NCBI GenBank assembly: GCA_944323255.1
Contig: CALURU010000012.1
Span: 3,459-67,458, forward strand
DNA from: Candidatus Gastranaerophilales bacterium
GTDB taxonomy: Bacteria; Cyanobacteriota; Vampirovibrionia; Gastranaerophilales; Gastranaerophilaceae
DNA length: 64,000 bases
Direction: 5' to 3'
Shown here: one piece after another, positions 25,269-42,681 of the stretch
How the letters are laid out: each line of letters starts with the position of its first letter
How positions within the stretch are numbered: position 1 is the first letter of the stretch
The notes under the pieces: generated by a model
What the model saw: the letters and a program-made list of their open reading frames with translations, nothing else
Database searches by the model: none
Told to the model about the DNA's origin: nothing
Program-made: the position numbers and the translations under genes

Positions 25269-28129
25269 AAATCCATCACAAATTCCATATCATTTTCTTT
25301 TACGTTCAAGATAAACTTGTGAATACCGATTCTTACAATATATCTGACAGTTCCGTCCTCAAGTTTTTCGCTCACACGTGACTGCAATTTTTCTGTATCT
25401 AATTTTTCGTAGTACTTAATCTTAAATACACTGTCGCCAGCAAAGCCAATTATGCAATACCCTTTACTGTTTTTAGCAAGGTAACAGCCCATTCTGTCCG
25501 TGAAATATGAAGCGTTAACAATATTAAACCTTTCGCCTTCAAGTATGCAAAATTCCGGAGTAGGAACTCTCGGCGTTATTTTTCCGCTTTTTATGCCTTT
25601 CATTTCAGCTTGAGCTTCTTGTTTTGCAACGATTTTGGCTCTTCTATCCTGCTCAAGACGTTTAATCTTGCTCAAAAGCTTATCAGCCTCAGTCACTTCC
25701 TCCAGATCTTCCGGCTTTGAATACTCTTTCAAAGAATTATCAGAATTTTTAACAGGTTCTAAGTCAATTTCCGCATTGTTTACAGATGGCAAAAGTTCAT
25801 TACTTTCGCTGCTAACCGGCTCTAAATCAGTAATAGCAGGTATCTCTGTTTCATTTCGCATAGGTTTTGTATTCTCTCCATCTGCTCTAATTGTTTGTGC
25901 CGCCTGAGCAGCTGCACTGCTGGAATTTTGCGGCTTAGAAGCTTCTTGAGAGGCAGCACTGTTTCCGTCTTGCGCTGCACCGGCATCATGTTCCTTATCC
26001 AAATCTACATATTTTCCGTCATAAAGTGTTTCAAAGTCATTTTGATCCGTTTCCTTGATTTCAACCTGAACATCATCTTCATCACTAATGATTTCAAAAT
26101 TATCACCAAACTGGTTGAATTCCTCCTGCATATCAGAAACAGTAGGTGCAGGTCCAAAGTCGTTCAAAATTTCAAAGTCTCTCGTTCCGTCATCAAACGG
26201 TTTAAATGTAACATTAGAAATGTTTTTGAGAAGCGCTTCTTCGTCGACTTCCACCTCTTTTTCTTTAGGGGTTTCGTATTTTTCAGGGTGCTTAAGCATA
26301 TCCTCCAGATCCGGAAGCTCATTTCCTATCGACATTTTCTGAACTTCATAACTTGTATCAACGTATTGAATATCATCAGACGGTCTTACTTTGTAAGCAT
26401 CTTCATTATTGAGTTCCTTAGAAAGATCCGGCAAGTCCATATTGAGTTTTAACGTACTTACCTCGTACCCTTCACTTGCATATACAACCTGCGGTTTAAC
26501 CTCAGATTCAATTCTTCTTCCGCCCTGTTTCTTGAGCGCCTCTGATAAGTCAGGAAGCATGTCTTTTACATTGAGTGTTAATAGTTCGGAAGTCTTGTGA
26601 GGTTTTGATTTCTGTCTTGCAATCTCATCCTGCATTTCCTGCATTCTGCTCGGATTGGTCCTCAAATCTGTAATGAAATCTTCGTCCAGCTCTACACTAA
26701 TGAGTTTGTACAAAGCTTCAACATCTTCTTTTGTAAATGTTAAATTCTGTTGTGTTATGTATGTTGTAACAAATTTTTCCAGAAGCTCAAGTGCGGACGG
26801 CTTTCTGTTTTTCTCTGAAGACTCAAGAAATTCGGAAGCATGACGTTTTGTATCGTCACTTATTTCTGAATCTATCAGAGTTTCAATTCTATCCACATCG
26901 TCTTTTGAAAATTCAAGATTTTCATCGTTTATACATTTGTCATAAAGTTCTTCATCAATGCCCTGTTCTTCTTCAGCTTGTTCTTCCTGCCCGTCCTCAT
27001 CTTCTTCATCAAAGTTGTAAGTGCTCAAAAAATCTTCTAAAGCGTTGTTTCTCGGCTCTTCAAATTTACTGTCTTCTGTGGTATCAGAAGGCGTTGATGC
27101 CTGTTTACTCTGTTCATTTAACAATTCGTCAAGATCAACAATATTTTGTGCAACTTCCTGTACTTCTTCCTCATCATTGATTTGTGAAGAATTTTCTTCT
27201 GCTGATTGGCTTGTAGGCATTGTTACAGGTCTTGAATATTTTTTATCTATATTCTTAATTGTTGTGTTAAGTTTAGATTTACTGCCGGTTTTAGCTTTTT
27301 CCTTATCTTTTTTCTTCTTATCTTCTGGCTTAGGCTCGTCACTTACGTCATAATTTGCTTGTTCTCCGGTAATTTCAACCAGTTTGTCTTTTGCTTTTAG
27401 CATAAGGAAAAATGAAGTGACAATAACAAATGCTACACCAAGTATAATATACAAAAGTTCCTGATGGCTGGAAGGCTTATCTGCTTCCTGAAGGTCATTC
27501 AAAGTAGTCATCTCTTTTGTTGGTGCTTTTTTCTTTTTGCTTGTTGTCTGGCTTTGAGACTGGAATTGTTTGAGGCTCTCATTAATATCAACAGGTGTGA
27601 TTTGATCTACGCCGCTCTGTGATCTTATCGTATTACTGCTGCTATTGTTTCGACTCCGTCTGCTCCTTGAAGAAGAATTATTGTCATTATCTGAAGCAGT
27701 TGAAGTTTGGGTTGTTGTAATCATATCCGGCATGCTTCCCGGAGGAACATATACCAGAGTGTTTACATATAATGGGGCGCTTGATTTTGTCGTGATTGTT
27801 ATTTTTGTATAGCCGTTGCTTTCTTTTGTATAAGGCATAGTTTGAATATCCAAACTTTCAATGCTTTCGCCGAGAGCAGTGCCTGAAGGAACTTCACTGT
27901 TTGTTTCAGGAAGCATTATTACATAAGTACTGGCACTTTTACGTATCGGGCTAATGCTATTTGTCAATTTTTCTTTTGTCTGAAGCGTAACATTTACACC
28001 CCCGCTGCGGGTGGTGCTAAAATTGAGTGCCATTAAACTATTCTTATAATTCTCTGCGCCAAAAGCTCCAACTACGGTTACTACAGAAGCCAGAACTAAT
28101 GCCAAGGTTCTCTTCTTAAACTGCTTCAT
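25262..28129 (-). CDS. Large single-pass membrane protein: exported N-domain (AMIN-like), TM, very acidic cytoplasmic region (FimV/HubP-like architecture)
   Basis: Signal peptide; TM LLYIILGVAFVIVTSFFLML; long D/E-rich tracts; compact C-terminal domain. Confidence 0.55.
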   Translation of the reverse strand: MKQFKKRTLALVLASVVTVVGAFGAENYKNSLMALNFSTTRSGGVNVTLQTKEKLTNSISPIRKSASTYVIMLPETNSEVPSGTALGESIESLDIQTMPYTKESNGYTKITITTKSSAPLYVNTLVYVPPGSMPDMITTTQTSTASDNDNNSSSRSRRSRNNSSSNTIRSQSGVDQITPVDINESLKQFQSQSQTTSKKKKAPTKEMTTLNDLQEADKPSSHQELLYIILGVAFVIVTSFFLMLKAKDKLVEITGEQANYDVSDEPKPEDKKKKDKEKAKTGSKSKLNTTIKNIDKKYSRPVTMPTSQSAEENSSQINDEEEVQEVAQNIVDLDELLNEQSKQASTPSDTTEDSKFEEPRNNALEDFLSTYNFDEEDEDGQEEQAEEEQGIDEELYDKCINDENLEFSKDDVDRIETLIDSEISDDTKRHASEFLESSEKNRKPSALELLEKFVTTYITQQNLTFTKEDVEALYKLISVELDEDFITDLRTNPSRMQEMQDEIARQKSKPHKTSELLTLNVKDMLPDLSEALKKQGGRRIESEVKPQVVYASEGYEVSTLKLNMDLPDLSKELNNEDAYKVRPSDDIQYVDTSYEVQKMSIGNELPDLEDMLKHPEKYETPKEKEVEVDEEALLKNISNVTFKPFDDGTRDFEILNDFGPAPTVSDMQEEFNQFGDNFEIISDEDDVQVEIKETDQNDFETLYDGKYVDLDKEHDAGAAQDGNSAASQEASKPQNSSSAAAQAAQTIRADGENTKPMRNETEIPAITDLEPVSSESNELLPSVNNAEIDLEPVKNSDNSLKEYSKPEDLEEVTEADKLLSKIKRLEQDRRAKIVAKQEAQAEMKGIKSGKITPRVPTPEFCILEGERFNIVNASYFTDRMGCYLAKNSKGYCIIGFAGDSVFKIKYYEKLDTEKLQSRVSEKLEDGTVRYIVRIGIHKFILNVKENDMEFVMDLC

Positions 28130-28188: not shown

Positions 28189-29193
28189 CTACATATCAGT
28201 TACTATAATACGTTTGTCCGAAGTTATTTTATCAACATTCAAAATAGTATAAAGTGTTCCGTTATACATTAATTCCTGTGCAAAATACCCGTCACTGTTA
28301 TCAATCGCATCTGTTTCCAAAAATTCAAACAATTCATTAATCTTGTCAATCAAAAGTGCCAGTTTTAATTCATTACACTTTACTATAATTACAGGATTTT
28401 TGTCATTTTTAGAAGACGCTTTGAGTCCTAAAAATTTCTTGAGATTTAATACTGTAATATAATCTCCTCTCAAGTTCATAATTCCTTCAATAAAATCAGG
28501 CGTTCCAGGAACAAATGTAATGGATGTATCTTTTAAAACCTCTTTTACAAAATTTAATTCTATACAATAAGAATCATCGTTGAGGTTGAAAGATATGTAC
28601 TTGTTTTTTGCGTGCAATTCTCCTGAAGCAAGTTTTAAATTAGACTTGTCTGCAATAGCAAGTGTCCTCTTGCTCATAATGCTTTTGGAAACTTCGTCCT
28701 GTGGAAATAAGGACTGTATTTCAACTTCTGCCCATTGATTGTCATGCTGTTTCAGTAGATTTTCTATAGCATAAATGTTTATGATAAAGATTGTTTCATT
28801 ATTATACTTGTACAGGGAATCTATAATCATCTTGTGGTCTACAAACGGAATTGCATCCACAAGTGCAGCATCAAAAGGAAGTATACCTAGAACTTTATCG
28901 GTTATTATTCCAAAAATTGTTTCATCAGTTTTAATGATTAAAAGTTCTTTGTTGATGTCATACGGTGTAACTTCCATATCCAGATAAAAACGGATATCGA
29001 TAATATTAATTACAAAGTTATTGTATTTTAATAGTCCTATTATATTGTTCGGAAGTTTCTGCGGATAATCAAGTTCAGGAAGCTTCATAATTTCCAGCAC
29101 ATTATCGGTATTTACGGCATATTTATTACCGCCGACACTAAAGTAAAGGTGTGTATTTTTTCTTTGTTCAATATAATTATTGCTGCTGCTCAT
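28189..29193 (-). CDS. cheW: Tandem double CheW-domain protein
   Basis: Two CheW repeats: KYAVNTDNVLEI..IIGLLKYNNFVINIIDIR and SYCIELNFVKEV..VPGTPDFIEGIMNLRGDYITVLNL. Confidence 0.9.
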   Translation of the reverse strand: MSSSNNYIEQRKNTHLYFSVGGNKYAVNTDNVLEIMKLPELDYPQKLPNNIIGLLKYNNFVINIIDIRFYLDMEVTPYDINKELLIIKTDETIFGIITDKVLGILPFDAALVDAIPFVDHKMIIDSLYKYNNETIFIINIYAIENLLKQHDNQWAEVEIQSLFPQDEVSKSIMSKRTLAIADKSNLKLASGELHAKNKYISFNLNDDSYCIELNFVKEVLKDTSITFVPGTPDFIEGIMNLRGDYITVLNLKKFLGLKASSKNDKNPVIIVKCNELKLALLIDKINELFEFLETDAIDNSDGYFAQELMYNGTLYTILNVDKITSDKRIIVTDM

Positions 29194-30634
29194 ACAAAAT
29201 AACTCTGTTTCTGCCGCTCTCTTTAGCTTTATATAATGCTTCGTCCGCAGATTTTAACATTTCCGCAGGTGTGTTAAATTCCGGATAATTCATTGTTAGA
29301 CCTATACTTACGGTAACTTTTGACTTAACTCCGTTATATTCAAAATCATATTCTTCAACCGTTCTTCTAAGCCTTTGTACAGGAATAATTGCGCCTTCAA
29401 TATTTGTTTCAGGCATAATCATAACCATTTCTTCTCCGCCGTAACGATATAAGAGGTCTGTTTTCCTAAATGCAGCCTTCATCAAATCCGCAATCGTCTT
29501 GAGTACATAATCGCCATACTGGTGACCATATGTATCATTAACTTTCTTAAAGAAGTCAATATCAAGAATAGCAAGGCTGAAATCCGAAGGATGGCGCTTT
29601 GTTCTGTTATATTCCTGCTCCAAACTTATCTCAAACTGGCGTCTGTTGTATAATCCGGTAAGTCCGTCAAGTACTGACATAAATTCTTTTTCGGTATACT
29701 GATATTTCATCTTGAAGATTGCAAGAAGTTCGCTTATCATAATATCAAAGTATCTGAAAGAAGCGTAGTCCATATCCTGACGGGTGTAGAAACAAATACC
29801 TCCGATGAGTTTTTTGTCAAATATAAGCGGAATAATGATTTTTGAAGTCAGATCCGTAAACTTGTAGTCAAGTTCTTTTCCCAGCAGAATCCTTACAACT
29901 TCAAATTTTGTATTTTTTAAAGCTCTGTATTCTTCCATTTTTCTGAAAAAATCATACTGAATATCGGATAAGAGGCTCTTACTCAAGTTTCTGCCAAGTG
30001 TATCAATGTATAAGATATTTTCAGCAAAATCATCCGGAGATGCAAAAAATATCCCTGCAACAGAATATTCTACAAACGAACTCAAAAGAGAAAACAGTTT
30101 TTCTACCAGAACTCTTTCATAGTTCATAAAATCGCTCAGGTTGCGAAACTCGTTTGCAAAAACGGATTTTAAAAGTAAATCATTAAGAATTGTATTAAGT
30201 CTTACCTGCGCAGAATCAGGAGAAGACTTTGTCATAAGTGCAGCTTTGTACTCTTCAGAAAGCGGATAGCGCCTAAGTGTTGCCTTAATCTGGCGTACAA
30301 GTTCGTTCATGTCGATAGATTTTGACAGAAACAACTGTGCTCCGGCTTTTTTGCCCCAGAAACTGTCAATTTTTTTGTCCAAAACCGTCAGCAAAATAAC
30401 CGGAATTTTTTTGATTTCGTCAACATTTTTAATCATTCGGCAAAGTTGATAACCGTCTATGACCGGCATCATAATATCAGACAGAACAAGATCCGGAACG
30501 TATTCAAAAATCTTTTTGTACGCCTCGCCGCCGTTAGTTGCGGTTTCAACGTCAAAACCGTTCTCAATTAACCCTTCTTTTAAAAACTTTAACTGGGTAT
30601 CACTGTCTTCTACTAATAAAACTTTTGCTGCCAT
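29177..30634 (-). CDS. Response-regulator diguanylate cyclase (REC-linker-GGDEF, WspR/PleD-like)
   Basis: REC LLVEDS..VLSDIMMP; DGLTGLYNRR, DIDFFKKVNDTYGH, I-site RKTD, active site YGGEEM. Confidence 0.95.
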   Translation of the reverse strand: MAAKVLLVEDSDTQLKFLKEGLIENGFDVETATNGGEAYKKIFEYVPDLVLSDIMMPVIDGYQLCRMIKNVDEIKKIPVILLTVLDKKIDSFWGKKAGAQLFLSKSIDMNELVRQIKATLRRYPLSEEYKAALMTKSSPDSAQVRLNTILNDLLLKSVFANEFRNLSDFMNYERVLVEKLFSLLSSFVEYSVAGIFFASPDDFAENILYIDTLGRNLSKSLLSDIQYDFFRKMEEYRALKNTKFEVVRILLGKELDYKFTDLTSKIIIPLIFDKKLIGGICFYTRQDMDYASFRYFDIMISELLAIFKMKYQYTEKEFMSVLDGLTGLYNRRQFEISLEQEYNRTKRHPSDFSLAILDIDFFKKVNDTYGHQYGDYVLKTIADLMKAAFRKTDLLYRYGGEEMVMIMPETNIEGAIIPVQRLRRTVEEYDFEYNGVKSKVTVSIGLTMNYPEFNTPAEMLKSADEALYKAKESGRNRVILYEQQQ

Positions 30635-30717
30635 GTATTCGTATATTCCAATTTTATCTATTTTAGTATAAAATAATTATATAATAAAATACTCAAAAAA
30701 ACTATAGGAGAGAAGAA

Positions 30718-31764
30718 GTGCAAAACGAATTTCAATTTGGACTAAAACAGAAGTTTAATATCAAGTGTGCAATAGATATGAGCGTGTTCGTACTGGCATG
30801 CGTTTTGTTTTTGTTTTTTGCAAAAATGAACCATGTGGCACCTTATGATACGTTTGTATTTCTTGTAATAATTATTTTGTTGAATGTTACTGTTCATATA
30901 ATATCTAAGCAGTGGATACAACGTTCTATAAGACAGGCAGTATTTTTGCAATCGAATTCTCTTGCGGAAACGACTTCGGAGTTTATGGACACTATAATGT
31001 CACAAAAACACATGTCTGAAACGCTCGCTTCTAACGCAAAGGCTCTTTCTTCTTCTATAGAAAAACTCAAAACATTGGCTTCGGAGTATTATACTACAAC
31101 AAAGAATGCCGAAAAGCAGGTTACGCAGTCAATCAATTTCTCGGAAAAAGAGCATGAATCTATCTCTTCTAATGCTGATAAAATGCTTATTTTGAGACAA
31201 AAGATTCAGATGATTGCTGAATTAATCCTTGAGCTTTCAGAACATTCACAGCAAATCGGAAGTACAATCAGCGTTGTAGATGATATTGCAGAGCAGACAA
31301 ACATGCTTGCGCTTAATGCTGCGGTTGAAGCTGCAAGAGCAGGCGAACATGGAAAAGGTTTCGCAGTTGTTGCGGGTGAAATCAGAAAGCTTGCTGATGA
31401 ATCAAAACAGGCTATTACCAAAATATCTTCTCTTACAAATAATATTCAGTGCACAACAAACTCTACGGTCATGGCAACAGAAGAGGGTTCAAAAGAGATT
31501 GAGTCTGTTGTTAAAGATATAAATGTAGTTTCTTCTAATTCTGAAACATTGTTGAATTTGATTAAGGAAATTTTAGATTCGCTTGAGATGCTCAGCCAGA
31601 ACGCAAAGAAGCAGAGTGATATTATTGAACGTCTTAATTCGATTGATGAGGAAACTTCTTCAATCGCAGAAAATCTTACTCAGACAATGTTATCAAATTC
31701 AGAAAAAATTTCTAAGCTGAATGCAATGTCGCAGAATATTAAAAATTCCGCCATTGATAATTAA
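30718..31764 (+). CDS. Methyl-accepting chemotaxis-like receptor lacking a periplasmic sensor domain
   Basis: Two adjacent TMs; hairpin tip [37 protein letters not shown]. Confidence 0.93.
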
Positions 31765-31786
31765 TTGAATAAAAGAGGGCGGTACT

Positions 31787-34753
31787 TTGGATTTTCCGGG
31801 AAATGACAATAATAATAAAGAAATGTTTGCAATCTTCCAGGGTGAATCGGAGGAGATTATTGACCGTATTTTTGAGAGTCTGGATGCACTTGAAAAAACT
31901 CCTGCCAATAAGGATTTAATAGGATCAATTTACAGAGACCTGCACAGTATTAAAGGTGCGGTCAGAATGGTCGGATTTAATAATATTCAAAGTATTTTTC
32001 ACAAGATGGAAGATATCTTTGATGCAGTAAATAATGATCGTTTTGTGCTTGACAAAGAGATGATTCTTCTTATGTCACGCACACTGGAAACTGCTTCTAA
32101 GTATGTACAAGAATCCGTTAAAAATGAGCGTGAGATTATTGGAGAAGAGTTTACTGCGACTATTTCTAATCTTGAATATATTTTAGAAATAGAAATAAAT
32201 GAACAGACATTCAAACAGAATGAAGCTCTGGCATCTATTGTTGATATTGCGGAAAATCCGGCTGAATCGCAAGAACTTGCAAAGCATCAGGAGGAAATTA
32301 ACCAGTCCTTTAATAATTGTTTTGAAATAATTGACGGAATTGTTCCGGAGGAAGAAAGTCAGGATATTGTTCTTTTGAGGGAAGAGGTTCAGAAGATACA
32401 TAGTTTTTTCCTTGAATCCAACCTTTATGAAGTAAGAACTTCTCTGGAAAACATTCTTGCAAAGATTGATTTTGTAATGAATGCGACAAATACGCTTACA
32501 ATAAGCGAGATTTTGGAACTTAGAAATGAATTAAGCTCTGCTGCGGCAAAGTTTACAACCTCCTGCATTGAAACGGAAGAGGCAGGACTTACATTCTTTG
32601 ATGTTGCAGAAAAAATGTCTATGCTTCAGGGCAGCAGTATTTATGCAAAAGAAATTGAAAATGATATTTTGCAGCTAAAAGATGGCGTGTACGACCAGAA
32701 CATACTAGAAATTATAAATATGATTCTGGAAATTTTGCATTTTATTACAGATAACTCTGTTCAGCTGGAAGAGCAGATGACACTCACGCTCAAGAGTGCG
32801 ATGGAATATTGTGCTTCGCCGAATGAAAGCGTTGATAACGATTTAATATTACAGCAGCTTGAGATTATGAAACAGCTTCTGGATCTGAATTATAAAAAGG
32901 ATACGGAAGTCAGCGAGATTAAAAATATTTCAACCCAGACTTCCTCCGGCAATAAATCTGCTTCGTCTACAGAGATTAAAACTCTGCATGTTAACGCACA
33001 AAAGCTTGATTTGCTTGTTAATCAGCTTGGTGAACTTATTATTACAAAGATTAAAACTGAAAAAAATCTTGAGAAAATTGATTCTATTAAAAATGCAAAC
33101 GAAATTTGTCAGAAAGATTTACTTAAAACTTCTAATTATCTAAGATATTATAACCGCAAATATCTTCAGGCAAGTAGTACTGACCAATATACGGGGGTGT
33201 TTGTAAAGCAGGTTTTTTCACTTCTCCTTGATATTACACAAAATGTTTCAAGAACAATATACGACTTGAACTCGCTTTATCGTGCTTACAAAGAGGACGA
33301 TATGAAGATGAGATTAATTATAGATGAAATGGAATCTATGGTGAAAAATATTCGTGTTCTTCCTATTTCTACAGTGTTTAATTCTTTTTCTAGAATGGTT
33401 AGAGATATTGCGAATGAAAAAGGTAAGGATATTGATTTTGAAATAGAAGGTAAAGACACCTGCGCTGATAAAAAAATTATTGAAGAAATTAAAACGCCTT
33501 TGATTCATATTTTAAGAAACGCTATCGACCATGGTATTGAGACAAAGGAAGAGAGAATTGCAAACGGAAAAAGTCCTGTTGGAAGAATTCTTCTGTCTGC
33601 AAAACAGGATGATAATAAAGTTATTATTGATGTTTTTGATGACGGGCAGGGATTTAATCTGGAAAAAATTAAGGACAGAGCAGTTGCAAGAGGCTTCCTG
33701 ACGCAGGAAGATATCGACTCTATGACTGACGAAGCGATAATGAATATTATTTTCTGGCCGGGATTTACCACCGGAGATTCTATTACAAGTATTTCCGGTA
33801 GAGGGATAGGACTTGATGTCGTAAAAACAAAAATCTCACAGCTCAATGGTAAAGTTAAAGTTATATCAGAGTTCGGCCAAGGAAGCTGCGTGCACATAGA
33901 GATTCCTGTAACCCTGACAACTTTGAGAGTATTTCTTGTCCAGATTTCCGGTCAGACTTTTGCAATACCTATTCAGGTTATTACAACATTTATTCTTAAA
34001 AACCAGAATGAAATCAAAACTAATAATGGAATGCGGACAATAACTTATAATAACAGTATCATTCCTCTTTATTATCTGTCTGATATTCTTGATTTGGAGC
34101 CGATTCCAAGAGAGGATAAGGAGACAATACTTATTATTGAAGCTGATGATAAAACAATCGGGCTTGTAGTTGATAAATTGCTCGGCGATCAGGATATTTT
34201 GCAGAAAAAGTTATCACCGCCTCTTTATAAGGTTAAAAATATTTCAGGAATTACAAACCTTGCATCGGGCGAATTGTGCCTTATTCTAAATATGCAGGAT
34301 ATTATGCATTTTGATTTCAATAAGGCAGTTACTTCCGCAAATAATCCTAAGCTGCTTCCGTCAGATGTATTGTCTTACAAGCGAATTCTTATTGTTGACG
34401 ATTCAATAACAACGAGAACTATGATTAAGAATATTTTGCTGAATATCGGCTACATTGTTGATGCGGTGCTTGATGCAGAAGAAGCAATGGTTAAGCTGAA
34501 ACTTAATCATTATGATTTGATTATTACCGATCTAACTATGCCTAAGATTGACGGATACGAGTTTATCGAACGCTTAAAGAACGATGAAATGTATATGGAT
34601 ATTCCGATTATTGTCATGAGTTCTATGCCGGAGAAAAATGCAAGAGCTAAGCTGAATAAGGCTTATGTCGATTACTATATTTCAAAAGATAACTTTGACC
34701 AGAATGACCTTGCTAATCAGGTTAAGAAGATTTTGACCAAATACCATAATTAA
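31787..34753 (+). CDS. cheA: Hybrid CheA-CheY histidine kinase
   Basis: Hpt RDLHSIKG, dimerisation LDLLVNQLGEL, PLIHILRNAIDHG, GRGIGLDVVK, CheW domain, C-terminal REC ILIVDDS..IITDLTMP. Confidence 0.95.
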   Translation: MDFPGNDNNNKEMFAIFQGESEEIIDRIFESLDALEKTPANKDLIGSIYRDLHSIKGAVRMVGFNNIQSIFHKMEDIFDAVNNDRFVLDKEMILLMSRTLETASKYVQESVKNEREIIGEEFTATISNLEYILEIEINEQTFKQNEALASIVDIAENPAESQELAKHQEEINQSFNNCFEIIDGIVPEEESQDIVLLREEVQKIHSFFLESNLYEVRTSLENILAKIDFVMNATNTLTISEILELRNELSSAAAKFTTSCIETEEAGLTFFDVAEKMSMLQGSSIYAKEIENDILQLKDGVYDQNILEIINMILEILHFITDNSVQLEEQMTLTLKSAMEYCASPNESVDNDLILQQLEIMKQLLDLNYKKDTEVSEIKNISTQTSSGNKSASSTEIKTLHVNAQKLDLLVNQLGELIITKIKTEKNLEKIDSIKNANEICQKDLLKTSNYLRYYNRKYLQASSTDQYTGVFVKQVFSLLLDITQNVSRTIYDLNSLYRAYKEDDMKMRLIIDEMESMVKNIRVLPISTVFNSFSRMVRDIANEKGKDIDFEIEGKDTCADKKIIEEIKTPLIHILRNAIDHGIETKEERIANGKSPVGRILLSAKQDDNKVIIDVFDDGQGFNLEKIKDRAVARGFLTQEDIDSMTDEAIMNIIFWPGFTTGDSITSISGRGIGLDVVKTKISQLNGKVKVISEFGQGSCVHIEIPVTLTTLRVFLVQISGQTFAIPIQVITTFILKNQNEIKTNNGMRTITYNNSIIPLYYLSDILDLEPIPREDKETILIIEADDKTIGLVVDKLLGDQDILQKKLSPPLYKVKNISGITNLASGELCLILNMQDIMHFDFNKAVTSANNPKLLPSDVLSYKRILIVDDSITTRTMIKNILLNIGYIVDAVLDAEEAMVKLKLNHYDLIITDLTMPKIDGYEFIERLKNDEMYMDIPIIVMSSMPEKNARAKLNKAYVDYYISKDNFDQNDLANQVKKILTKYHN

Positions 34754-36228: not shown

Positions 36229-36597
36229 TTACTGCTTTACCTCCGGCGGCAAATCGAGTTCAAAATTATAAACTTCACTCTCTGGCGGCTGATCTATTGC
36301 ATAAATCTCAAACCCTTTAGCATCGCTTATGTTTGTTTTATCTTCCGTAACCTCTATATTAAACATTACCTTGTCTTTACCGTTTTTCAGTACGCATAAT
36401 CTTGTCATGCCGGTTTTCAGAGGGTGCACAAAAAGCGTATTTTTTTCGTTCATTATTGTAAAAAGAGGGTAAACATCCACTATGTCATTTTTTTCAATAC
36501 TAATATCCGAAAGTTTGCCGTCAGTAATTATTACACAATCTTCAAAAGCTTGTGCGGGAAGGATTATTATACATAACAAAAATAAGAACTTCTTCAT
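36229..36597 (-). CDS. Secreted protein resembling the pilus-formation/secretin N-terminal Ig-like domain (T2SS-T3SS_pil_N)
   Basis: Signal peptide; ISIEKNDIVDV...NTLFVHPLKTGMTRLCV resembles the RcpA/CpaC N-domain pattern (recognised by eye). Confidence 0.5.
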   Translation of the reverse strand: MKKFLFLLCIIILPAQAFEDCVIITDGKLSDISIEKNDIVDVYPLFTIMNEKNTLFVHPLKTGMTRLCVLKNGKDKVMFNIEVTEDKTNISDAKGFEIYAIDQPPESEVYNFELDLPPEVKQ

Positions 36598-37085
36598 TAC
36601 CTGCCTAACATTTTATTAATCTCTACAAAGTTACCTTTTGGCATTGGTGCACGTGGAGCTGTATCATACTTAATCTTCTGGTTTTTATCTATATAAGGAA
36701 CTTTGCCGGGATTTTTCATAATATCATTGAAATTATCCTGATTTTTGAATGAATCTTTCATCTCACCCTCAAACGGTGTTGTGTACTTATAATAATCAGC
36801 CGGAAGAACAAAGCTGTCATTTTTAGGAACAGTGTTAAACGCCAGCGACATTCCTTCTGTAAACAAATTAGTCAAAAGTCTTATAAACCCCATGCCGCCT
36901 ATAATAATTACCAAAAAGACAGCAAAAATTTTCGGAGCAGCGGCGATTGTTTGTTCCTGAACCTGCGTTACAGCCTGAATAATACCTACGACAAGACCTA
37001 TTGCTGCAGCTGTCAGTACGCAAGGCATAGAGATTGCAAGCATTGTCATAAATCCTTTTGATAAATATTCAGTTAACATTTCCAT
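36597..37085 (-). CDS. fliQ: Export gate protein FliQ/SctS with ~75-aa C-terminal extension
   Basis: GLVVGIIQAVTQVQEQTIAAAPKI motif; 162 aa versus the usual ~90. Confidence 0.9.
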   Translation of the reverse strand: MEMLTEYLSKGFMTMLAISMPCVLTAAAIGLVVGIIQAVTQVQEQTIAAAPKIFAVFLVIIIGGMGFIRLLTNLFTEGMSLAFNTVPKNDSFVLPADYYKYTTPFEGEMKDSFKNQDNFNDIMKNPGKVPYIDKNQKIKYDTAPRAPMPKGNFVEINKMLGR

Positions 37086-37086
37086 T

Positions 37087-37387
37087 TTTTTAACCTTTCT
37101 TATCGGGCGGCATCGATTTTTATTCTGTATTTATTTTATTCCTACCCGTTGCCCTCTGCTGTTCGTACTACCTGTCTGACGTTGCGAAATTTTTAACCTT
37201 TCTTGTCGGGCAGAACCTGACCTGCAATTTTTAGTCACTTTTGCTTACCCCTCACCCTATCCCTCTCCCAACAGGGGCGAGGGGAAAAAGGCTTCCTAAC
37301 CGCATTATTCATTTGTCATTTATCTGGCAAAGCCTGACCTACAATTCTTAGTCACCCAGTCACTTATTCACTTTAACCACTATTCAC
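37087..37387. repeat. Mosaic repeat element between fliP and fliQ
   Basis: Duplicated TTTTTAACCTTTCTT(A/G)TCGGGC (37087, 37190); two inverted GTAG/GCAG hairpins (37204-37225, 37321-37342); CCCCTCACCCTATCCCTCTCCC..GGGGCGAGGGG (37248-37284); inverted GTGA octamers (37348-37387). Confidence 0.8.
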
Positions 37388-38025
37388 TAATTATAACTTT
37401 GCACCAAGCCCTGAACAATTAACGCCCATCCATCAACTGCAATAAATATAAGCAATTTGAACGGAAGTGAGATAATTGTTGGTGATAACATAAACATACC
37501 GAGTGCAAGAAGTATGTTTGCTACAACTAAATCTAATACAATGAACGGAACAAATACTATAAAACCGATTTCAAAAGCTGTTTTGAGTTCACTCAAAATA
37601 TACGCCGGAGCGACTTCCCAGAGGGTTATGTCTTCCGGACTCTTAGGAGGCGTTTTGTGTTTCAGCTCTACAAAAAACGCTAAATCGCTCTCTCTTGTTT
37701 GTTTCATCATAAATTCTTTCAGCGGTTTTGAACCTTCATTTATGGCTTCAATCAAGTTCTGGTTCTTCTGGTACGGAATCGAGCCCCTGTCATACATTTG
37801 CTGAAATACATTCCCCATTGTGTAAAAAGTTAGTATCATACATAAACCGATTGTAACAATCGCCGGCGGAACCTGTACACCCATAGCTGTTTTAAGAAGC
37901 GAAAATACTATCGTAAATCGCAAAAAACAGGTCATACAGCAAAAAACAAACGGTAATAACGAAAACAGTGTCATTACTGTCAGCATTTGCAAAACCGGAT
38001 TCATATCTTGTATTACTGATTCCAT
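37387..38025 (-). CDS. fliP: Export gate protein FliP/SctR, short form without signal peptide
   Basis: MTCFLRFTIVFSLLKTAMG..QVPP, PAYILSELKTAFEIGF..FVPFIVLDLVVANILLALGMFMLSPTIISLPFKL. Confidence 0.95.
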   Translation of the reverse strand: MESVIQDMNPVLQMLTVMTLFSLLPFVFCCMTCFLRFTIVFSLLKTAMGVQVPPAIVTIGLCMILTFYTMGNVFQQMYDRGSIPYQKNQNLIEAINEGSKPLKEFMMKQTRESDLAFFVELKHKTPPKSPEDITLWEVAPAYILSELKTAFEIGFIVFVPFIVLDLVVANILLALGMFMLSPTIISLPFKLLIFIAVDGWALIVQGLVQSYN

Positions 38026-38156: not shown

Positions 38157-38615
38157 TTACCTCATCTTTGAAGCCAAACTTCTTATCACTGATGTATAAG
38201 GCGTTTCTCTTCTGTTTGTTAACATGCTTGAGTTAATTCCGATATTGGATTTGTCCATATATTTTGATTTCGGAAGATTTGCCATTGTCTCCTGAAATGT
38301 CATCTTAGCTGTGTTTTCGCTTAAATCCAGATTTGACTTTGGTATGTCAGGAATAACCATCTCATCTTTTGCAGATTCCAGCTTTGAAATCAAAGCAGTT
38401 TTGCCCACGTCTCCTGCAATAAGAAATTTTTCTCTGCCGGTTGATATCACATACAATGTTTTTCTCGGAGCAATTGTGAGCGTATCCAAAACTTTTAAAT
38501 GCTTTGATTTGCACCCGCCGCCAAATGATGCGCTGTTTTTGAATATCAAAAGCGCAATTGAAATTACCCCAATCATTGCAAGCGTATATACCATAAAATT
38601 TGCTAAATATCCCAT
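38157..38615 (-). CDS. fliO: Flagellar biosynthesis protein FliO
   Basis: Single TM then LKVLDTLTIAPRKTLYVISTGREKFLIA; ATG 38615 after AGAGGA (ORF track 38699). Confidence 0.8.
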   Translation of the reverse strand: MGYLANFMVYTLAMIGVISIALLIFKNSASFGGGCKSKHLKVLDTLTIAPRKTLYVISTGREKFLIAGDVGKTALISKLESAKDEMVIPDIPKSNLDLSENTAKMTFQETMANLPKSKYMDKSNIGINSSMLTNRRETPYTSVIRSLASKMR

Positions 38616-38661
38616 AAAACTTCCTCTTTTAGTTAAGTTTTTACTGTTTTTTATTTGATTG

Positions 38662-39771
38662 TCAACCCTGGTTTTCGACTTCAAAATCGCTGTAGTCAAA
38701 ATCTTCTGCCGGAGTTGCGTCCTGTATTGTTCCGCCTTCCGCTTCTGGAGCAGAATGCTCTTCAGCGCCCGAAGCAGGAGTTGAGGACGAATCGTTAACT
38801 TTTTCTATCCTTACACCAAACCGGTCATTAATTATCACCAGTTCGCCGGATGCCACAAGTTTTCCGCCGACTTTCAGAGAAACTTTGTTGTCATAGACTG
38901 AACATAAATCTACAATTAGTCCCTCTTCAATACTTTTGAGTTCGCCTAAAGTTACTTTTACTTTATCAAATTCTGCCGACATATCAACTTGAATACTATC
39001 CCACAAATTAGTATTTGTATTATTTTCCATACTATCTCCTCCGCCGGTATCATACGGTTCTATTATTTTAATATTAGGTTTTATCTGAAATTTTTGTATA
39101 ATGTTGTTGCACACAAGCGTCATTTCGCTTGATAGGCTGTTTTCAAACACTACAATATCACCGATATCCAGTTTTTTTATATCGGCAACAGGAAACGTAG
39201 TTGTTCCGAGCAAAAGGTTAACTTCCACAAGGCTGTTAGAAAAGTCTTTGTCTTGAAACCTTGGTTCTTTTGCCTTCAAATCCTGAGGTTTAAGAATCTC
39301 TTTCGGAACTGATATGATAAATTTTGCTGCTGCATCTGATATTTCACTTTTGACAAAATAAGTAAGATGCAGGATTTCGTTGTATCTTCTGTGAGGTTCA
39401 ATTGTAAAATTCGGGGAAAGGTTTTCGTACAAAAAATCGTTAAATGCGGTTATTATTCTGGCTTCCAGCTCTGTAACCTCGGTCAGGTCAAACCTTCGGT
39501 TGTTTTTGCCCAGAACTTTATCCAAAATTACATTTATTGCTTCTTGAGAAATTCTTATGTATATGTCGTTTTTAGAATTAATTTTAATTTTGGTGACGAA
39601 AAATGTTTCATTTTGTGATAGTACGTTCATGTTTGTGCTGATAGAAGCAAGCTTGTATTCAAATCCGTCATAGAAAAATTCACTGCTGCAGTTTTTAACA
39701 ACAGGTGTAAACACGGAATCAAACCATGCAAATTGTCTATACAATTCATCAAAAAACACGGAATTTATCAT
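38662..39771 (-). CDS. fliM: FliM-FliN fusion (FliM middle domain plus two SPOA domains; SctQ-like)
   Basis: FliM-like LDKVLG..LTEVTELEARII; SPOA1 VEVNLLLGTTTFPVADIKKLDIGDIV; SPOA2 KVTLGELKSIEEGLIVDL..GKLVASGELVIINDRFGVRI. Confidence 0.82.
   Translation of the reverse strand: MINSVFFDELYRQFAWFDSVFTPVVKNCSSEFFYDGFEYKLASISTNMNVLSQNETFFVTKIKINSKNDIYIRISQEAINVILDKVLGKNNRRFDLTEVTELEARIITAFNDFLYENLSPNFTIEPHRRYNEILHLTYFVKSEISDAAAKFIISVPKEILKPQDLKAKEPRFQDKDFSNSLVEVNLLLGTTTFPVADIKKLDIGDIVVFENSLSSEMTLVCNNIIQKFQIKPNIKIIEPYDTGGGDSMENNTNTNLWDSIQVDMSAEFDKVKVTLGELKSIEEGLIVDLCSVYDNKVSLKVGGKLVASGELVIINDRFGVRIEKVNDSSSTPASGAEEHSAPEAEGGTIQDATPAEDFDYSDFEVENQG
39028..39042 (-). promoter_or_regulatory. Internal Shine-Dalgarno plus in-frame ATG for a FliN-sized product (38662-39030, 122 aa)
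   Basis: Minus strand GGAGGAG-ATAGT-ATG GAA AAT at codon 248, in the linker between the two SPOA domains. Confidence 0.7.
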
Positions 39772-39934
39772 ACTTAACCATTTCCCTACGGATAAACCTG
39801 CTCCTCACAAACATTTATCCCCAAGCTTATAATACATAATTATTTATATAAACACATCAACTGTTTGTATGAATTTTAATCAGGGTAAATAAGCAAGTGA
39901 TAAATGGATAGGAGGATTAATCGGAGTGCAAAAA

Positions 39935-39961
39935 GGGGCGGAATTTGAAAAATTCCGCCCC
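39935..39961 (-). terminator. glnA intrinsic terminator
   Basis: GGGGCGGAATTT-gaa-AAATTCCGCCCC with U-run on the minus strand. Confidence 0.85.
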
Positions 39962-39981: not shown

Positions 39982-41343
39982 TTAATATCTTGCAAGATAT
40001 CTGTCGATTTCCCATTGAGAAACGTAAGTTCTGAAATCATCCCACTCAATTTCTTTTGCGGTCATAAATTCATCTAAAATATGGTCTCCGAGTGCAGTTT
40101 TGGCAATCAGTGATTTATCCATAAAATAGAGTGCTTCTTTCAAACTTCCAGGAAGAGATTCAATTCTCATTTTCTTTCTTTCTTTGTCGGAAAGCTTGTA
40201 AATATTAGCTTCTACCGGTTTTGGCGGTTCAATTTTGTTTCTTACGCCGTCAAGGCAGGCTGCAAGAATTGTTGCAAAAGCAAGATAAGGGTTGCAGCTA
40301 GGATCAGGCGAGCGAAGCTCTACACGTGTTGACATTCCTCGTTTTGCAGGAACTCTTAAAAGCGCACTTCTGTTTGCAAGCGACCACGCCATATATACTG
40401 GTGCTTCGTAGCCCGGAACGAGTCTTTTGTAGCTGTTTACAGTCGGGTTAAGAATTGCGGTTATGCTTTTAATATGTTTCAAAATCCCGCCGATTGCGTA
40501 TTTTGCTGTATCAGAAAGTTGATATTCAGCATTTTCATCGTAAAAAGCGTTTTTACCGTCCTTAAACAATGAGATATTGCAATGCATACCTGAACCGTTG
40601 ATTCCGAAAACAGGTTTCGGCATAAATGTTGCGTGAAGCCCGTATTGAGCGGCAACTGCTTTTACCGCAACTCTAAATGTTGCAACGTTATCGGCAGTTG
40701 TCAGGATATCCGAATACTTAAAATCGACTTCGTGCTGACCATCTGCAACTTCGTGATGGGAAGCTTCTATATCAAAATCCATTTCCTGCAGAGTGCTAAC
40801 AATATCTGCACGAACAGCTTCTCCTAAATCATCCGGTCCTACGTCATAATAACCGGCTCTGTCGTGGGTTTTTGTTGTAATATGTTCTTCCTCATCTTTT
40901 TCAAAGAGGAAAAATTCTGCTTCCGGCCCTACGTTCATTGAAAAGCCGAGCTTGTGGGCTTCTTCCATAAGCCTTTTGAGGTTGCATCTCGGGCAGCCTT
41001 CAAACGGAGTTCCATCTGCGTTATAAATATCGCAAATTAATCTTGCTGAATTTTTGCCGTCCCTTTCCTGCCAAGGTAAAATTTGGAAAGTATTTTTGTC
41101 AGGATAGAAAAACATATCAGAAGTTTCAATGTTTCTGAACCCTTTAATTGATGAGCCGTCAAGCATAATTTCATTATTAAGAATTCTGTCAATATGTTCC
41201 GAAGGTACTGCCATATTTTTAACCTGTCCGTTTATGTCAACGAATTGTAACTTGATAAACTGGACATTGTACTCTGTAATAAGTCTTTTGATGTCGGCAT
41301 CAGTGTAATTTGCGCCGTTTAGCGGCTGATGATGAAATTCCAT
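39982..41343 (-). CDS. glnA: Glutamine synthetase type I
   Basis: LDGSSIKGF, NVGPEAEFFLF, EASHHEVADGQHE, TFMPKPVFGINGSGMH, KRLVPGYEAP, RVELRSPDPSCNPYL. Confidence 0.98.
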   Translation of the reverse strand: MEFHHQPLNGANYTDADIKRLITEYNVQFIKLQFVDINGQVKNMAVPSEHIDRILNNEIMLDGSSIKGFRNIETSDMFFYPDKNTFQILPWQERDGKNSARLICDIYNADGTPFEGCPRCNLKRLMEEAHKLGFSMNVGPEAEFFLFEKDEEEHITTKTHDRAGYYDVGPDDLGEAVRADIVSTLQEMDFDIEASHHEVADGQHEVDFKYSDILTTADNVATFRVAVKAVAAQYGLHATFMPKPVFGINGSGMHCNISLFKDGKNAFYDENAEYQLSDTAKYAIGGILKHIKSITAILNPTVNSYKRLVPGYEAPVYMAWSLANRSALLRVPAKRGMSTRVELRSPDPSCNPYLAFATILAACLDGVRNKIEPPKPVEANIYKLSDKERKKMRIESLPGSLKEALYFMDKSLIAKTALGDHILDEFMTAKEIEWDDFRTYVSQWEIDRYLARY

Positions 41344-41373
41344 ACATTCCCTCCGATCTTTCTTAATAATAAT

Positions 41374-41425
41374 TGTACTAACTACACTAAAGCTTTATCG
41401 TATATTATTTTTTTAAATCGGTCAA
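41374..41425 (-). promoter_or_regulatory. glnA sigma70 promoter with a downstream TGTA-N5-TACA palindrome
   Basis: TTGACC (41425-41420), 17 bp, TACGAT (41402-41397); palindrome at 41374-41386. Confidence 0.5.
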
Positions 41426-41484
41426 TAGATTTGATATTAAGAATTTGTAAAGCAAAAAATATTTTTATGATTTTTATAATCTGT

Positions 41485-42681
41485 ATGAATTCATATTTAA
41501 ACCATATACCTGCACAGATTAAAAATTCCGCATTCCCTCTGACGAGGCTGAAATCGGAAAAGCTTGAAGGAATACAGAAAAATATTCCGTTGTTTGAGGG
41601 TGTAAATATGAGGGATATTGCGTTTTTGACCAAGCGGTTTGAGACTTTGAATTTATATAGAGGGTGCAGGGTTAATTGTTCTCACTGTCTGAAGGATGCC
41701 AAACCGCCTCAAAAAGGGCGTGAGACAATTTTGTTTGAAGATTTAATGAGGTTTCTGGACGGATTCAGGGAACTCGGGGAAAGGTTAGGATTCAATGTTT
41801 TTCAGGGAAATAAGTATGTTAATATCATTGATGATGCTAACCCTTCCGACATTCCGATAAGGGGCAAAGAGCGGACGCATAGCGTTGTTGAGGCTATTGA
41901 AAAAATTTATGACAAAATAAATCTTCCGGTAATTTTTGTAACTTCAGGCTGGAATCGGGCTTCCAAATACGCACAAAGTGCTGCGGAAGAGCTGGTTAAA
42001 CTTGCTCAAAAAAAGCCTGATTCAATTGAGTCGGTAGAAGTTTCCATAAATCCTTTTGCGGGAGTAATGGAAAAATCACGAGAAGCGTTAAAAGACGGAA
42101 ATTCTGATAAAGCGAAGTTTTTCAGAAATATTTATACGGATAGAATATCAAATACTCTGGCTGTTTTTCTTAAACTTTTTGAGAGTGGAAAAGCCCGCAT
42201 AATATACCGCCACGCACCTGATTATGAGGGAAATGAACTTGTAGGCGCTCAGGAAACCCGCAGACTTTACGAAGAAATTTATGCAAAGCTCGGAGAAAAA
42301 ACAGGCTCTGCGCTTGATTTTATACCTGAATTGAAGCCCAAAAACCTTACAAAATTTGATAAATCTCACCTGATTGAGCCTAGCGGAAGAGGAAGACGGT
42401 ATTTTCCTGCGGATAAAAACTTAAAAGAGCAGTCCGAACTTATTGATGAAGCCATGGATTGGGAGATGATGAGTCCTGATGAGAGGCGAAAAATGCTTCT
42501 TGATTGTGCTCTCAAGTGCGTTGATATTGACGGAAGTGTTTACGCAACAATGCCTGCAAATAAAGTAGAGCACATTTTTGCGCCTGTAGAGTTAACAATT
42601 CCTGCAAATATAAAACTGAATTACGAAAACAAAACTCCCGCAGGAAATATATTCAGTGACATTGAGTTTATAGGCGGCTGA
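41485..42681 (+). CDS. Orphan radical-SAM-like protein
   Basis: LNLYRGCRVNCSHC (CxxxCxxC, 41665-41688); ATG 41485 chosen because the ORF-track start overlaps glnA. Confidence 0.65.
   Translation: MNSYLNHIPAQIKNSAFPLTRLKSEKLEGIQKNIPLFEGVNMRDIAFLTKRFETLNLYRGCRVNCSHCLKDAKPPQKGRETILFEDLMRFLDGFRELGERLGFNVFQGNKYVNIIDDANPSDIPIRGKERTHSVVEAIEKIYDKINLPVIFVTSGWNRASKYAQSAAEELVKLAQKKPDSIESVEVSINPFAGVMEKSREALKDGNSDKAKFFRNIYTDRISNTLAVFLKLFESGKARIIYRHAPDYEGNELVGAQETRRLYEEIYAKLGEKTGSALDFIPELKPKNLTKFDKSHLIEPSGRGRRYFPADKNLKEQSELIDEAMDWEMMSPDERRKMLLDCALKCVDIDGSVYATMPANKVEHIFAPVELTIPANIKLNYENKTPAGNIFSDIEFIGG

What the first reader, a model, noticed from the sequence alone, without database searches (positions are those of the whole stretch)
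38662..39771. Natural FliM-FliN fusion with a retained internal RBS: SctQ-style tandem translation, no CheY-binding peptide
Seen: one 369-aa frame with the FliM middle domain and two SPOA domains. In the linker, GGAGGAG-ATAGT-ATG (ATG at 39030, codon 248) would give a 122-aa FliN-like product. The N-terminal LSQxEIDALL peptide is absent. Known: injectisome sctQ genes (yscQ, spaO, ssaQ) make full-length and C-terminal products from an internal start, and FliM-N binds CheY-P. Inference: this looks like a snapshot of the fliM+fliN to sctQ transition, in a C-ring that probably cannot be switched by CheY.
Basis: partly seen in the sequence, partly recalled or inferred. Interest (0 to 1): 0.75.

Follow-up and report, generated by a model that had tools for sequence, protein, structure and literature searches.

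The report
Natural FliM-FliN fusion with internal start
A gut relative of cyanobacteria (Gastranaerophilales) encodes its flagellar switch proteins FliM and FliN as one fused gene. That gene keeps a strongly conserved internal ribosome-binding site and start codon, so it probably makes both a long and a short protein, as injectisome SctQ genes do.

Summary
Window 38662-39771 (-) is an intact 369-aa ORF. It has a domain predicted to fold like the FliM middle domain, two SPOA domains, and GGAGG, 7 nt, then ATG at codon 248 (39030). Four independent chicken-gut assemblies and more than 85 related loci all show one ORF, so it is not an assembly error.

An internal initiation site is well supported by comparison:
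- All 81 orthologues keep GGAGG or AGGAG 4-10 nt before an in-frame linker ATG.
- The motif is built from different codons (GGA-GGN, GAA-GGA-G, GAG-GAG-G, ATG-GAG-GA).
- Seven of seven distant relatives with Val at that position use GTG.
- The main start lacks an SD in 76/81.
- Of 396 internal ATGs in the window's genes, only this one has GGAGG upstream.

No protein-level evidence exists.

The gene heads a stand-alone operon of flagellar type (fliO-P-Q-R). So this is a parallel to SctQ in the flagellar lineage, not a demonstrated step towards the injectisome. The CheY-binding N-peptide is absent across the family, but whether the ring can be switched was not tested. An invariant C-terminal EDFDYSDF peptide is unexplained.

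The parts
38662..39771 (-). Full-length fused fliM/fliN-like ORF, 369 aa, 41.6 kDa. It is the first gene of the operon.
   Evidence: intact in independent assemblies; single ORF in 80 loci
39277..39759 (-). N-terminal domain (about residues 5-165) predicted to have the FliM-middle/CheC fold. It has no CheY-binding peptide, and the GGXG loop is reduced to a single invariant Gly (G88; alignment by eye).
   Evidence: AF2 pLDDT 65-81; Foldseek hits to FliM 8umd_C, 4gc8, 4fhr, 2hp7, 7dm9; no Pfam/NCBIfam match
39085..39237 (-). SPOA1 domain (about residues 179-229), the counterpart of the FliM C-terminal SPOA domain and of SctQ SPOA1.
   Evidence: Pfam FliMN_C E 4.7e-7; TIGR02551 SctQ model spans residues 164-324; precomputed PF28396 SepQ_C in relatives
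39036..39042 (-). Shine-Dalgarno GGAGGAG inside the SPOA1-SPOA2 linker. The GGAGG core lies 7 nt before the internal ATG.
   Evidence: SD conserved in 81/81 orthologues through different codon solutions
39028..39030 (-). Internal start codon ATG (Met248).
   Evidence: Aligned ATG in 81/81 orthologues; GTG in 7/7 distant relatives with Val at this position
38662..39030 (-). Predicted short product: 122 aa, 13.2 kDa, FliN-like, made of SPOA2 plus the acidic tail.
   Evidence: inferred from conservation, product not observed
38797..39009 (-). SPOA2 domain (residues 255-325), FliN-like.
   Evidence: Pfam E 6.7e-16 and TIGR02480 fliN E 2.9e-15; the PDB profile search hits Salmonella FliN and the engineered FliM(SPOA)::FliN fusion 4yxb
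38680..38706 (-). Invariant C-terminal peptide EDFDYSDFE (residues 356-364), at the end of a disordered acidic spacer of variable length (residues 326-355). It is carried by both predicted products.
   Evidence: Invariant columns; motif present in 327/338 family proteins, spacer 26-87 aa; pLDDT about 30-47 over residues 331-369; no PDB sequence match
38157..38699 (-). fliO. The true start is probably the ATG near 38615, preceded by GAGG.
   Evidence: Pfam FliO E 3.6e-6; sequence
37387..38025 (-). fliP
   Evidence: TIGR01103 221.1 bits, just above the 217.45 cut-off; SctR models score lower
36597..37085 (-). fliQ with a C-terminal extension of about 85 aa
   Evidence: Bac_export_3 matches residues 5-75 of 162; the product is 154-165 aa in L081-L089
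36229..36597 (-). 122-aa ORF with a signal-peptide-like N-terminus, lying between fliQ and fliR. No family match.
   Evidence: a gene of 128-179 aa follows fliQ in L083, L085, L086, L088 and L089 (before fliR where fliR is on the contig); none in L081 or L082
35448..36227 (-). fliR, the last T3SS gene. RNase HII follows it.
39935..39961 (-). Strong intrinsic terminator after glnA, so the fused gene begins a new transcription unit.
   Evidence: 12-bp stem, 7 GC pairs, T run

Best explanation
The gene encodes the cytoplasmic-ring, or sorting-platform, subunit of the Gastranaerophilales flagellar-type T3SS. It is a single polypeptide: a FliM-like middle domain, then SPOA1 (the FliM C-domain equivalent), then SPOA2 (the FliN equivalent).

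Ribosomes also initiate at a strong SD plus ATG (GTG in some relatives) in the SPOA1-SPOA2 linker. This yields a free 13-kDa FliN-like protein.

By analogy with Spa33, SpaO and YscQ, and with the FliM1:FliN3 unit of flagellar C-rings, the full-length protein would fold SPOA1 and SPOA2 into an intramolecular pseudo-dimer. That pseudo-dimer would recruit a homodimer of the short product, giving 1 FL : 2 C. The weak main start and strong internal start would supply the needed excess of short product.

Shown: the architecture, the conservation of the SD and start, and the operon context. Inferred: that both products are made, their stoichiometry, and ring assembly.
For: Architecture.

Internal initiation site:
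- 77/81 orthologues have GGAGG or AGGAG 4-10 nt (mode 7) before the aligned ATG. The other four use an ATG four codons downstream, with GGAGG formed by ATG-GAG-GAN codons.
- Amino acids change (GG, EG, EE, ME[DE]) while the GGAG core stays.
- Gly-Gly pairs elsewhere in these genes begin with GGA in only 12/92 cases. In the window's genes the figure is 5/56, with 48/56 GGC.
- Only 9 of 481 other internal ATGs in the orthologues have any SD.
- About 8 distant 50%-identity clusters have Val at the site. The 7 that were looked up all use GTG with an SD 7-10 nt upstream, whereas GTG is 18% of Val codons in those genes. That gives roughly 6e-6 if the seven are independent.
- The main start lacks an SD in 76/81.

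Literature (PMC4832279):
- A Salmonella FliM-FliN fusion mutant makes only fragmentary C-rings and is rescued by extra FliN, not by extra FliM.
- The Shigella internal start is GTG.
Against: - No proteomic, Ribo-seq or expression data exist, and no RNA runs hold the sequence.
- The AF2 model is weak overall (mean pLDDT 56, SPOA parts below 50). Homology of the N-domain to FliM therefore rests on fold alone; hhalign and HMMs do not see it.
- Local RNA structure around the internal start is not weaker than elsewhere in the gene.
- SD use is low genome-wide (11/49 predicted starts).
- The orthologues are phylogenetically related, so counts overstate the number of independent events. The 14 clusters below 70% identity all keep the site.
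Confidence: 0.78

Rival explanations
1. Only the full-length protein is made. The GGAGG is an in-frame SD-like pause site that slows ribosomes between SPOA1 and SPOA2 for co-translational folding. Alternatively, Gly-Gly-x-x-Met is simply a conserved linker peptide.
For: SD-like sequences inside genes can pause ribosomes (general knowledge). The linker is Gly- and acid-rich in most members. No product has been observed.
Against: The peptide is not conserved (GG, EG, EE, ME[DE]) but the RNA motif is. The motif is always paired with ATG or GTG at SD-like spacing. Val at the site is GTG in 7/7 cases. A pause site would need no start codon.
Confidence: 0.1
2. The short product is made, but mainly from a separate internal transcript driven by a promoter inside the gene, not by internal initiation on the full-length mRNA.
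For: A promoter-like site (TTCAGA-16-AATAAT, 9/12) lies at 39089-39062 (-), just upstream of the SD.
Against: Promoter-like hits in this AT-rich region are not above shuffled expectation (23 against 16.3 +/- 5.1). Conservation of this site was not examined. The same SD and ATG would be used in either case.
Confidence: 0.12
3. The protein is not the switch of a rotating flagellum. It is the sorting platform of a flagellum-derived export apparatus that most gut Gastranaerophilales keep after losing the filament, and perhaps the motor. It would then work like SctQ in function as well as in gene structure.
For: Published genome surveys:
- Only about 25% of human-gut Gastranaerophilales genomes have a full flagellar set. 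The rest keep export and rod genes, and a secretion role has been postulated (bioRxiv 10.64898/2026.04.24.720558).
- MEL.A1 lacks the filament, cap, junction proteins and L/P rings (PMC3787301).
- No FliG, FliM, FliN, MotAB or FliC were annotated in four Gastranaerophilales genomes (PMC4040986).

- The fused gene was found in 156 stretches of the species-level genome collection (251 matched a pattern).
- The CheY peptide is absent and the GGXG motif is not conserved (GGXG by eye).
- FliQ and FliR fall below the flagellar equivalog cut-offs.
Against: I could not determine the flagellar gene content of the window's own genome or of any genome carrying the gene. FliO is present, and the flagellar models outscore the Sct models. 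The same fusion may serve motile relatives as well.
Confidence: 0.35
4. The fusion is an assembly or frameshift artefact that joined separate fliM and fliN genes.
For: None found.
Against: Four independent assemblies agree without indels. There are 80 genome loci plus 9 further loci with one ORF, and more than 1,100 database proteins matching at E <= 0.001, of which the 120 listed are 360-395 aa long.
Confidence: 0.01

Closest known systems
SctQ of injectisomes (Spa33, SpaO, SsaQ, YscQ, HrcQ), which undergo tandem or internal translation
   Same: - One gene encodes an N-domain, SPOA1 and SPOA2.
- An internal SD plus ATG or GTG in front of SPOA2 would give an SPOA2-only product.
- The expected complex is 1 FL : 2 C.
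- There is no CheY-binding peptide and no GGXG motif.
- The TIGR02551 SctQ model aligns across both SPOA domains, and PF28396 SepQ_C hits relatives.
   Different: - It scores below the SctQ cut-off (61.4 against 100.8 bits).
- It sits in a fliO-P-Q-R operon of flagellar type, with no sct genes nearby.
- Its N-domain is predicted to have the FliM/CheC fold.
- It carries a family-specific C-terminal EDFDYSDF tail.
Canonical FliM plus FliN (C-ring unit FliM1:FliN3; PDB 8umd, 8vib, 9n49)
   Same: Same order of parts: middle domain, FliM SPOA, FliN SPOA. SPOA2 is most similar to FliN. The gene lies immediately upstream of fliO, as fliN does in many flagellar operons (general knowledge).
   Different: - It is one gene, not two.
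- The roughly 45 N-terminal residues of FliM (CheY-P peptide plus linker) are missing.
- It lies below the FliM and FliN equivalog cut-offs.
- PF02154 does not match.
- It has an extra acidic tail.
Laboratory FliM-FliN fusions: the Salmonella fusion mutant (Kihara 1996, as cited in PMC4832279) and the engineered FliM(SPOA)::FliN fusion (PDB 4yxb/4yxc)
   Same: FliM SPOA and FliN are joined covalently. 4yxb is the best PDB sequence hit of the family profile. The mutant's need for extra free FliN explains why a natural fusion would keep an internal start.
   Different: Those fusions are artificial or spontaneous laboratory constructs without an internal start. This one is natural, ancient and conserved.
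FliY (Bacillus, Thermotoga, Helicobacter)
   Same: A CheC-like domain followed by a FliN-like SPOA domain in one protein. It appears among the fold and HMM hits.
   Different: FliY has one SPOA domain, CheC-type phosphatase motifs and, in Bacillus, a CheY-binding N-peptide. None of these is seen here (phosphatase motifs checked by eye).
HrcQA/HrcQB of Pseudomonas syringae
   Same: It achieves the same two-product outcome: a long subunit plus an SPOA2-only subunit (PDB 1o9y among the hits).
   Different: It does so with two separate genes instead of an internal start.

Membership tests
SctQ (injectisome sorting-platform protein) | A single polypeptide with an N-terminal domain followed by SPOA1 and SPOA2 | tested here: met
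   Two FliMN_C matches; the TIGR02551 model aligns to residues 164-324
SctQ (injectisome sorting-platform protein) | An internal translation start in front of SPOA2 that gives a C-terminal product | tested here: met
   SD plus ATG or GTG is conserved in 81/81 orthologues and in 7/7 looked-up Val-variant relatives. This is sequence-level evidence only; the product was not observed.
SctQ (injectisome sorting-platform protein) | Score at or above the curated family threshold | tested here: not met
   TIGR02551 61.4 bits against a cut-off of 100.8; NF006018 39.1 against 223
SctQ (injectisome sorting-platform protein) | Encoded in a non-flagellar T3SS cluster (secretin SctC, SctD/J, SctK/L, needle) | tested here: not met
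   The operon is fused gene-fliO-fliP-fliQ-(x)-fliR. Flagellar models outscore Sct models. There are no sct genes in the window or in the eight other contexts.
FliM | N-terminal CheY-P-binding peptide (LSQxEIDALL) | tested here: not met
   Absent in the window protein and in the family alignments
FliM | Middle domain with the CheC/FliM fold | tested here: met
   By predicted fold only: Foldseek hits to FliM with E 3e-8 to 1e-4 and TM 0.50-0.61, on an N-domain with pLDDT 65-81. PF02154 and hhalign do not detect it.
FliM | GGXG loop that contacts FliG | tested here: inconclusive
   By-eye alignment of ILDKVLGKNN with AVDNLFGGDG (Salmonella FliM sequence). Only L87 and G88 are invariant. No residue-level structural alignment was available.
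FliM | Score at or above the TIGR01397 threshold | tested here: not met
   33.1 bits against 219.6, and only over the SPOA region
FliN | SPOA domain of FliN type | tested here: met
   TIGR02480 E 1.3e-18 (66.6 bits, below the equivalog cut-off of 84.05). The PDB profile search hits Salmonella and Thermotoga FliN.
FliN | Exists as a free small protein | not testable with these tools
   Predicted 122-aa product from Met248; this needs protein-level data
FliY | CheC-type phosphatase motifs and a single SPOA domain | tested here: not met
   There are two SPOA domains. No D/S-x3-E-x2-N motif was seen by inspecting the sequence.

The most novel reading that the evidence does not exclude
The fused gene and its stand-alone fliOPQR operon belong to a conserved, flagellum-derived export machine that most gut Gastranaerophilales keep after losing the filament, and possibly the motor. 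In that machine, evolution independently arrived at the injectisome's SctQ solution: one gene, two products, no CheY peptide, no GGXG motif. It also added its own invariant C-terminal EDFDYSDF docking peptide, present in three copies per unit, to tether a partner. This would be a second, independent flagellum-to-secretion-system transition, observable in living lineages that span both states.
Probability: 0.25. Interest if true: 0.85.

Novelty: new variant of a known kind. Interest (0 to 1): 0.66.

Why it matters
Tandem translation of the C-ring or sorting-platform gene has been reported only for injectisome SctQ proteins in the papers I found. The equivalence 'SctQ-FL = FliM-FliN fusion, SctQ-C = free FliN' was proposed from laboratory constructs.

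This is a natural lineage of the flagellar type that uses exactly that arrangement. The comparative evidence that the internal start is functional is unusually clean.

What it offers:
- An independent test of the unified 1:2 / 1:3 assembly model.
- A case showing that the SctQ gene structure can arise, or persist, outside injectisomes.
- A clade in which some members are reported to be fully flagellated and most reduced. The flagellum-to-secretion transition could therefore be studied by comparison.
- A correction to annotation: family-level models miss the FliM-like domain, and earlier surveys scored FliM and FliN as absent in these bacteria.

Tried and rejected
- Sequence-level link of the N-domain to FliM. 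Pfam and NCBIfam at E <= 10 gave nothing. hhalign of the family against a small FliM alignment found only the SPOA region. The PDB profile search hit only SPOA proteins. phmmer of the N-domain against 1.84 billion representatives returned only 121 hits, almost all in proteins with the same architecture, apart from four very long multi-repeat proteins.
- A profile search with the mixed alignment A1 returned again only close relatives.
- Flagellar gene content of the host genomes. The supplementary tables were truncated or uninformative. Cluster look-ups gave no organism names. A literature search for Melainabacteria plus FliG was unhelpful.
- RNA evidence: no RNA run holds the sequence.
- Reduced mRNA structure at the internal start: no signal (mean rank 0.45).
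- C-terminal tail against PDB sequences: no match.
- An internal promoter cannot be judged, because hits are at chance level.
- Considered and rejected: FliY identity, assembly artefact, and a pause site alone.

Full report
OBSERVATION. Window 38662-39771 (minus strand) is one 369-aa ORF. Codon 248 is ATG, with its A at 39030. It is preceded by GGC GGA GGA GAT AGT, that is, GGAGG followed by 7 nt. Initiation there would give a 122-aa, 13.2-kDa product, against 41.6 kDa for the full length.

IS THE ORF REAL? Contigs from four independent chicken-gut metagenome studies cover 38600-39850 with 0-5 substitutions and no indels. A scan of species-level genomes found 156 stretches encoding a relative. 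The 80 kept all come from Gastranaerophilales or Melainabacteria MAGs, or from mislabelled bins. All carry a single ORF of 361-430 aa at 39-87% identity. The protein database holds more than 1,100 matches at E <= 0.001, and the 120 listed are 360-395 aa long. The only source name given is 'FliM/FliN family flagellar motor switch protein'. The fusion is therefore natural and old.

DOMAINS.
- Pfam FliMN_C matches twice: residues 179-224 (E 4.7e-7, above the gathering score) and residues 258-325 (E 6.7e-16).
- SPOA2 is FliN-like: TIGR02480 E 1e-18. The family profile's best PDB hits are the engineered FliM(SPOA)::FliN fusion 4yxb and Salmonella FliN.
- The SctQ model TIGR02551 aligns across both SPOA domains but below its cut-off. 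Relatives carry the newer Pfam family PF28396, SepQ_C.
- Residues 1-165 match no sequence family. phmmer of this domain against 1.84 billion representative proteins returns only 121 hits. The full-length family members among them are 370-435 aa and have the same architecture. It is a narrow family.
- An AF2 model built on 45 sequences is weak overall (pLDDT 56) but reaches 65-81 over the N-domain. Foldseek against the PDB returns Salmonella FliM in the C-ring (E 3e-8), then FliM middle-domain crystal structures (TM 0.50-0.61), then CheC, FliY and CheX.
- So 'FliM middle domain' is supported by predicted fold only. hhalign against a small FliM alignment saw just the SPOA part.
- The first helix of the domain begins at about residue 5. 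The CheY-binding peptide and linker of FliM are therefore missing, both here and in about 60 diverse family members.
- By eye, ILDKVLG88KNN aligns with FliM AVDNLFGGDG. If so, the FliG-contacting GGXG loop keeps only its first Gly. This is an inference.

THE INTERNAL START. This is the strongest result.
- In the window's 49 likely genes, 396 internal in-frame ATGs were examined. Only this one has GGAGG 3-12 nt upstream.
- Across the window plus 80 orthologues, 77 have GGAGG (70) or AGGAG (7) 4-10 nt (mode 7) before the aligned linker ATG.
- The four apparent exceptions use an ATG four codons downstream. There GGAGG is formed by ATG-GAG-GAN, at a spacing of 5 nt. The count is therefore 81/81.
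- The linker peptide itself changes: GG, EG, EE, ME[DE]. The RNA core is retained through codon choice: GGA-GGN, GAA-GGA-G, GAG-GAG-G.
- This runs against the local bias. Gly-Gly pairs start with GGA in only 5/56 cases in the window's genes (48/56 GGC) and in 12/92 cases elsewhere in the orthologues.
- Only 9 of 481 other internal ATGs in the orthologues have any SD.
- In more distant 50%-identity clusters the position is usually Met, but Val in about eight. I fetched DNA for seven of those. All seven use GTG with an SD 7-10 nt upstream, although GTG is only 18% of Val codons in those genes.
- The main start lacks an SD in 76/81.
- Exchange between ATG and GTG only, at fixed SD spacing, together with a drifting peptide, is the signature of a start site. 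It is not the signature of a linker motif or a pause site.

CONTEXT.
- A strong terminator follows glnA at 39935-39961, so the fused gene opens an operon.
- Downstream lie fliO, fliP, a fliQ with an extension of about 85 aa, a 122-aa signal-peptide ORF, fliR, and then RNase HII.
- The same stand-alone operon occurs in all eight other contexts examined.
- Flagellar models outscore Sct models for FliP, FliQ and FliR. However, FliQ and FliR fall below their equivalog cut-offs, and FliP passes only just.
- The window contains no other flagellar genes. The adjacent chemosensory genes (MCP, CheA-CheW-REC, CheW-CheW, REC-GGDEF) look Wsp-like and would signal through c-di-GMP.
- Published surveys say only about a quarter of gut Gastranaerophilales have a full flagellar set. 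The others keep export and rod genes.
- I could not establish to which group this genome belongs.

MECHANISM.
- McDowell et al. [quoted passage not shown] - It also reports that a Salmonella FliM-FliN fusion mutant needs extra FliN to form proper C-rings.
- A natural fusion should therefore retain a way to make free FliN. The conserved internal start, stronger than the main start, fits that need.
- I put about 0.78 on two products being made from this gene.

COMPARISON AND NOVELTY.
- The gene works like SctQ but fails SctQ membership on score and gene context. It fails the FliM and FliN equivalog thresholds, and it is not FliY.
- I found no paper describing a natural flagellar-lineage FliM-FliN fusion or an internal start in flagellar switch genes.
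- I rate it a new variant of a known kind.
- The 'transition snapshot' reading is not demonstrated, and convergence is equally plausible.
- 'Not switchable by CheY' remains an inference.

UNEXPLAINED. An invariant C-terminal EDFDYSDF peptide sits at the end of a disordered acidic spacer of 26-87 aa. It is present in 327/338 family proteins and on both predicted products. It has no PDB sequence match. It looks like a tethered docking motif, and its partner is unknown.

Noticed in passing
window 38680-38706 (-), residues 356-364; also L001-L089 and P0273-P0383: An invariant C-terminal peptide EDFDYSDF[ED], usually followed by an acidic tail ending in ...DEDI. It sits after a low-complexity spacer of 26-87 aa. 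It is present in 327/338 family proteins and on both predicted products. It looks like a short linear docking motif with an unknown partner.
   Followed up: partly
window 36597-37085 (-): FliQ is 162 aa. The Bac_export_3 model covers only residues 5-75, leaving a C-terminal extension of about 85 aa. Products of 154-165 aa occur in all the other operons seen (L081-L089), so the extension is a conserved feature of this T3SS.
   Followed up: partly
window 36229-36597 (-); L083 3015-3554, L085 3904-4290, L086 3270-3767, L088 2862-3266, L089 7037-7489: A small ORF (122-179 aa) with a signal-peptide or lipoprotein-like N-terminus and no family match lies between fliQ and fliR in many members. There is one weak CagX hit in L083. 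The ORF is absent in L081 and L082. It may be a periplasmic accessory of the export gate.
   Followed up: partly
window 28189-34753: A Wsp-like chemosensory cluster lies next to the operon: REC-GGDEF (29177-30634, -), a double-CheW protein (28189-29193, -), an MCP (30718-31764, +) and a CheA-CheW-REC hybrid kinase (31787-34753, +). The output would be c-di-GMP, not CheY acting on the motor.
   Followed up: no
whole window (49 likely genes): There is strong avoidance of SD-like codon pairs. In Gly-Gly dipeptides the first codon is GGC in 48/56 cases and GGA in 5/56, although GGA is the commonest Gly codon overall (33%). Only 11/49 longest-ORF starts have an SD core.
   Followed up: partly
L089 5261-6550; L085 2303-3322: One distant relative has two tandem fliP genes (213 and 212 aa). 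Another has a 339-aa FliP directly after the fused gene and no separate fliO, which may be a FliO-FliP fusion.
   Followed up: no
window 25262-28129 (-) and 41329-42681 (+): Two large ORFs, of 955 aa and 450 aa, have no Pfam match. The first lies directly upstream of a solute-binding protein gene on the minus strand (24243-25268), overlapping its start by a few bases.
   Followed up: no
window 39935-39961: A perfect 12-bp GC-rich hairpin lies between glnA and the fused gene. It scores as an intrinsic terminator on both strands, but only the minus-strand copy is followed by an uninterrupted T run.
   Followed up: no
PMC3787301 methods (ACD20 gene list): The 13 flagellar genes shared by all four first Melainabacteria genomes include two flhA genes and an unusual order, fliF-x-fliH-flhA-fliI. 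This raises the possibility of duplicated or rearranged export-apparatus genes in this class.
   Followed up: no
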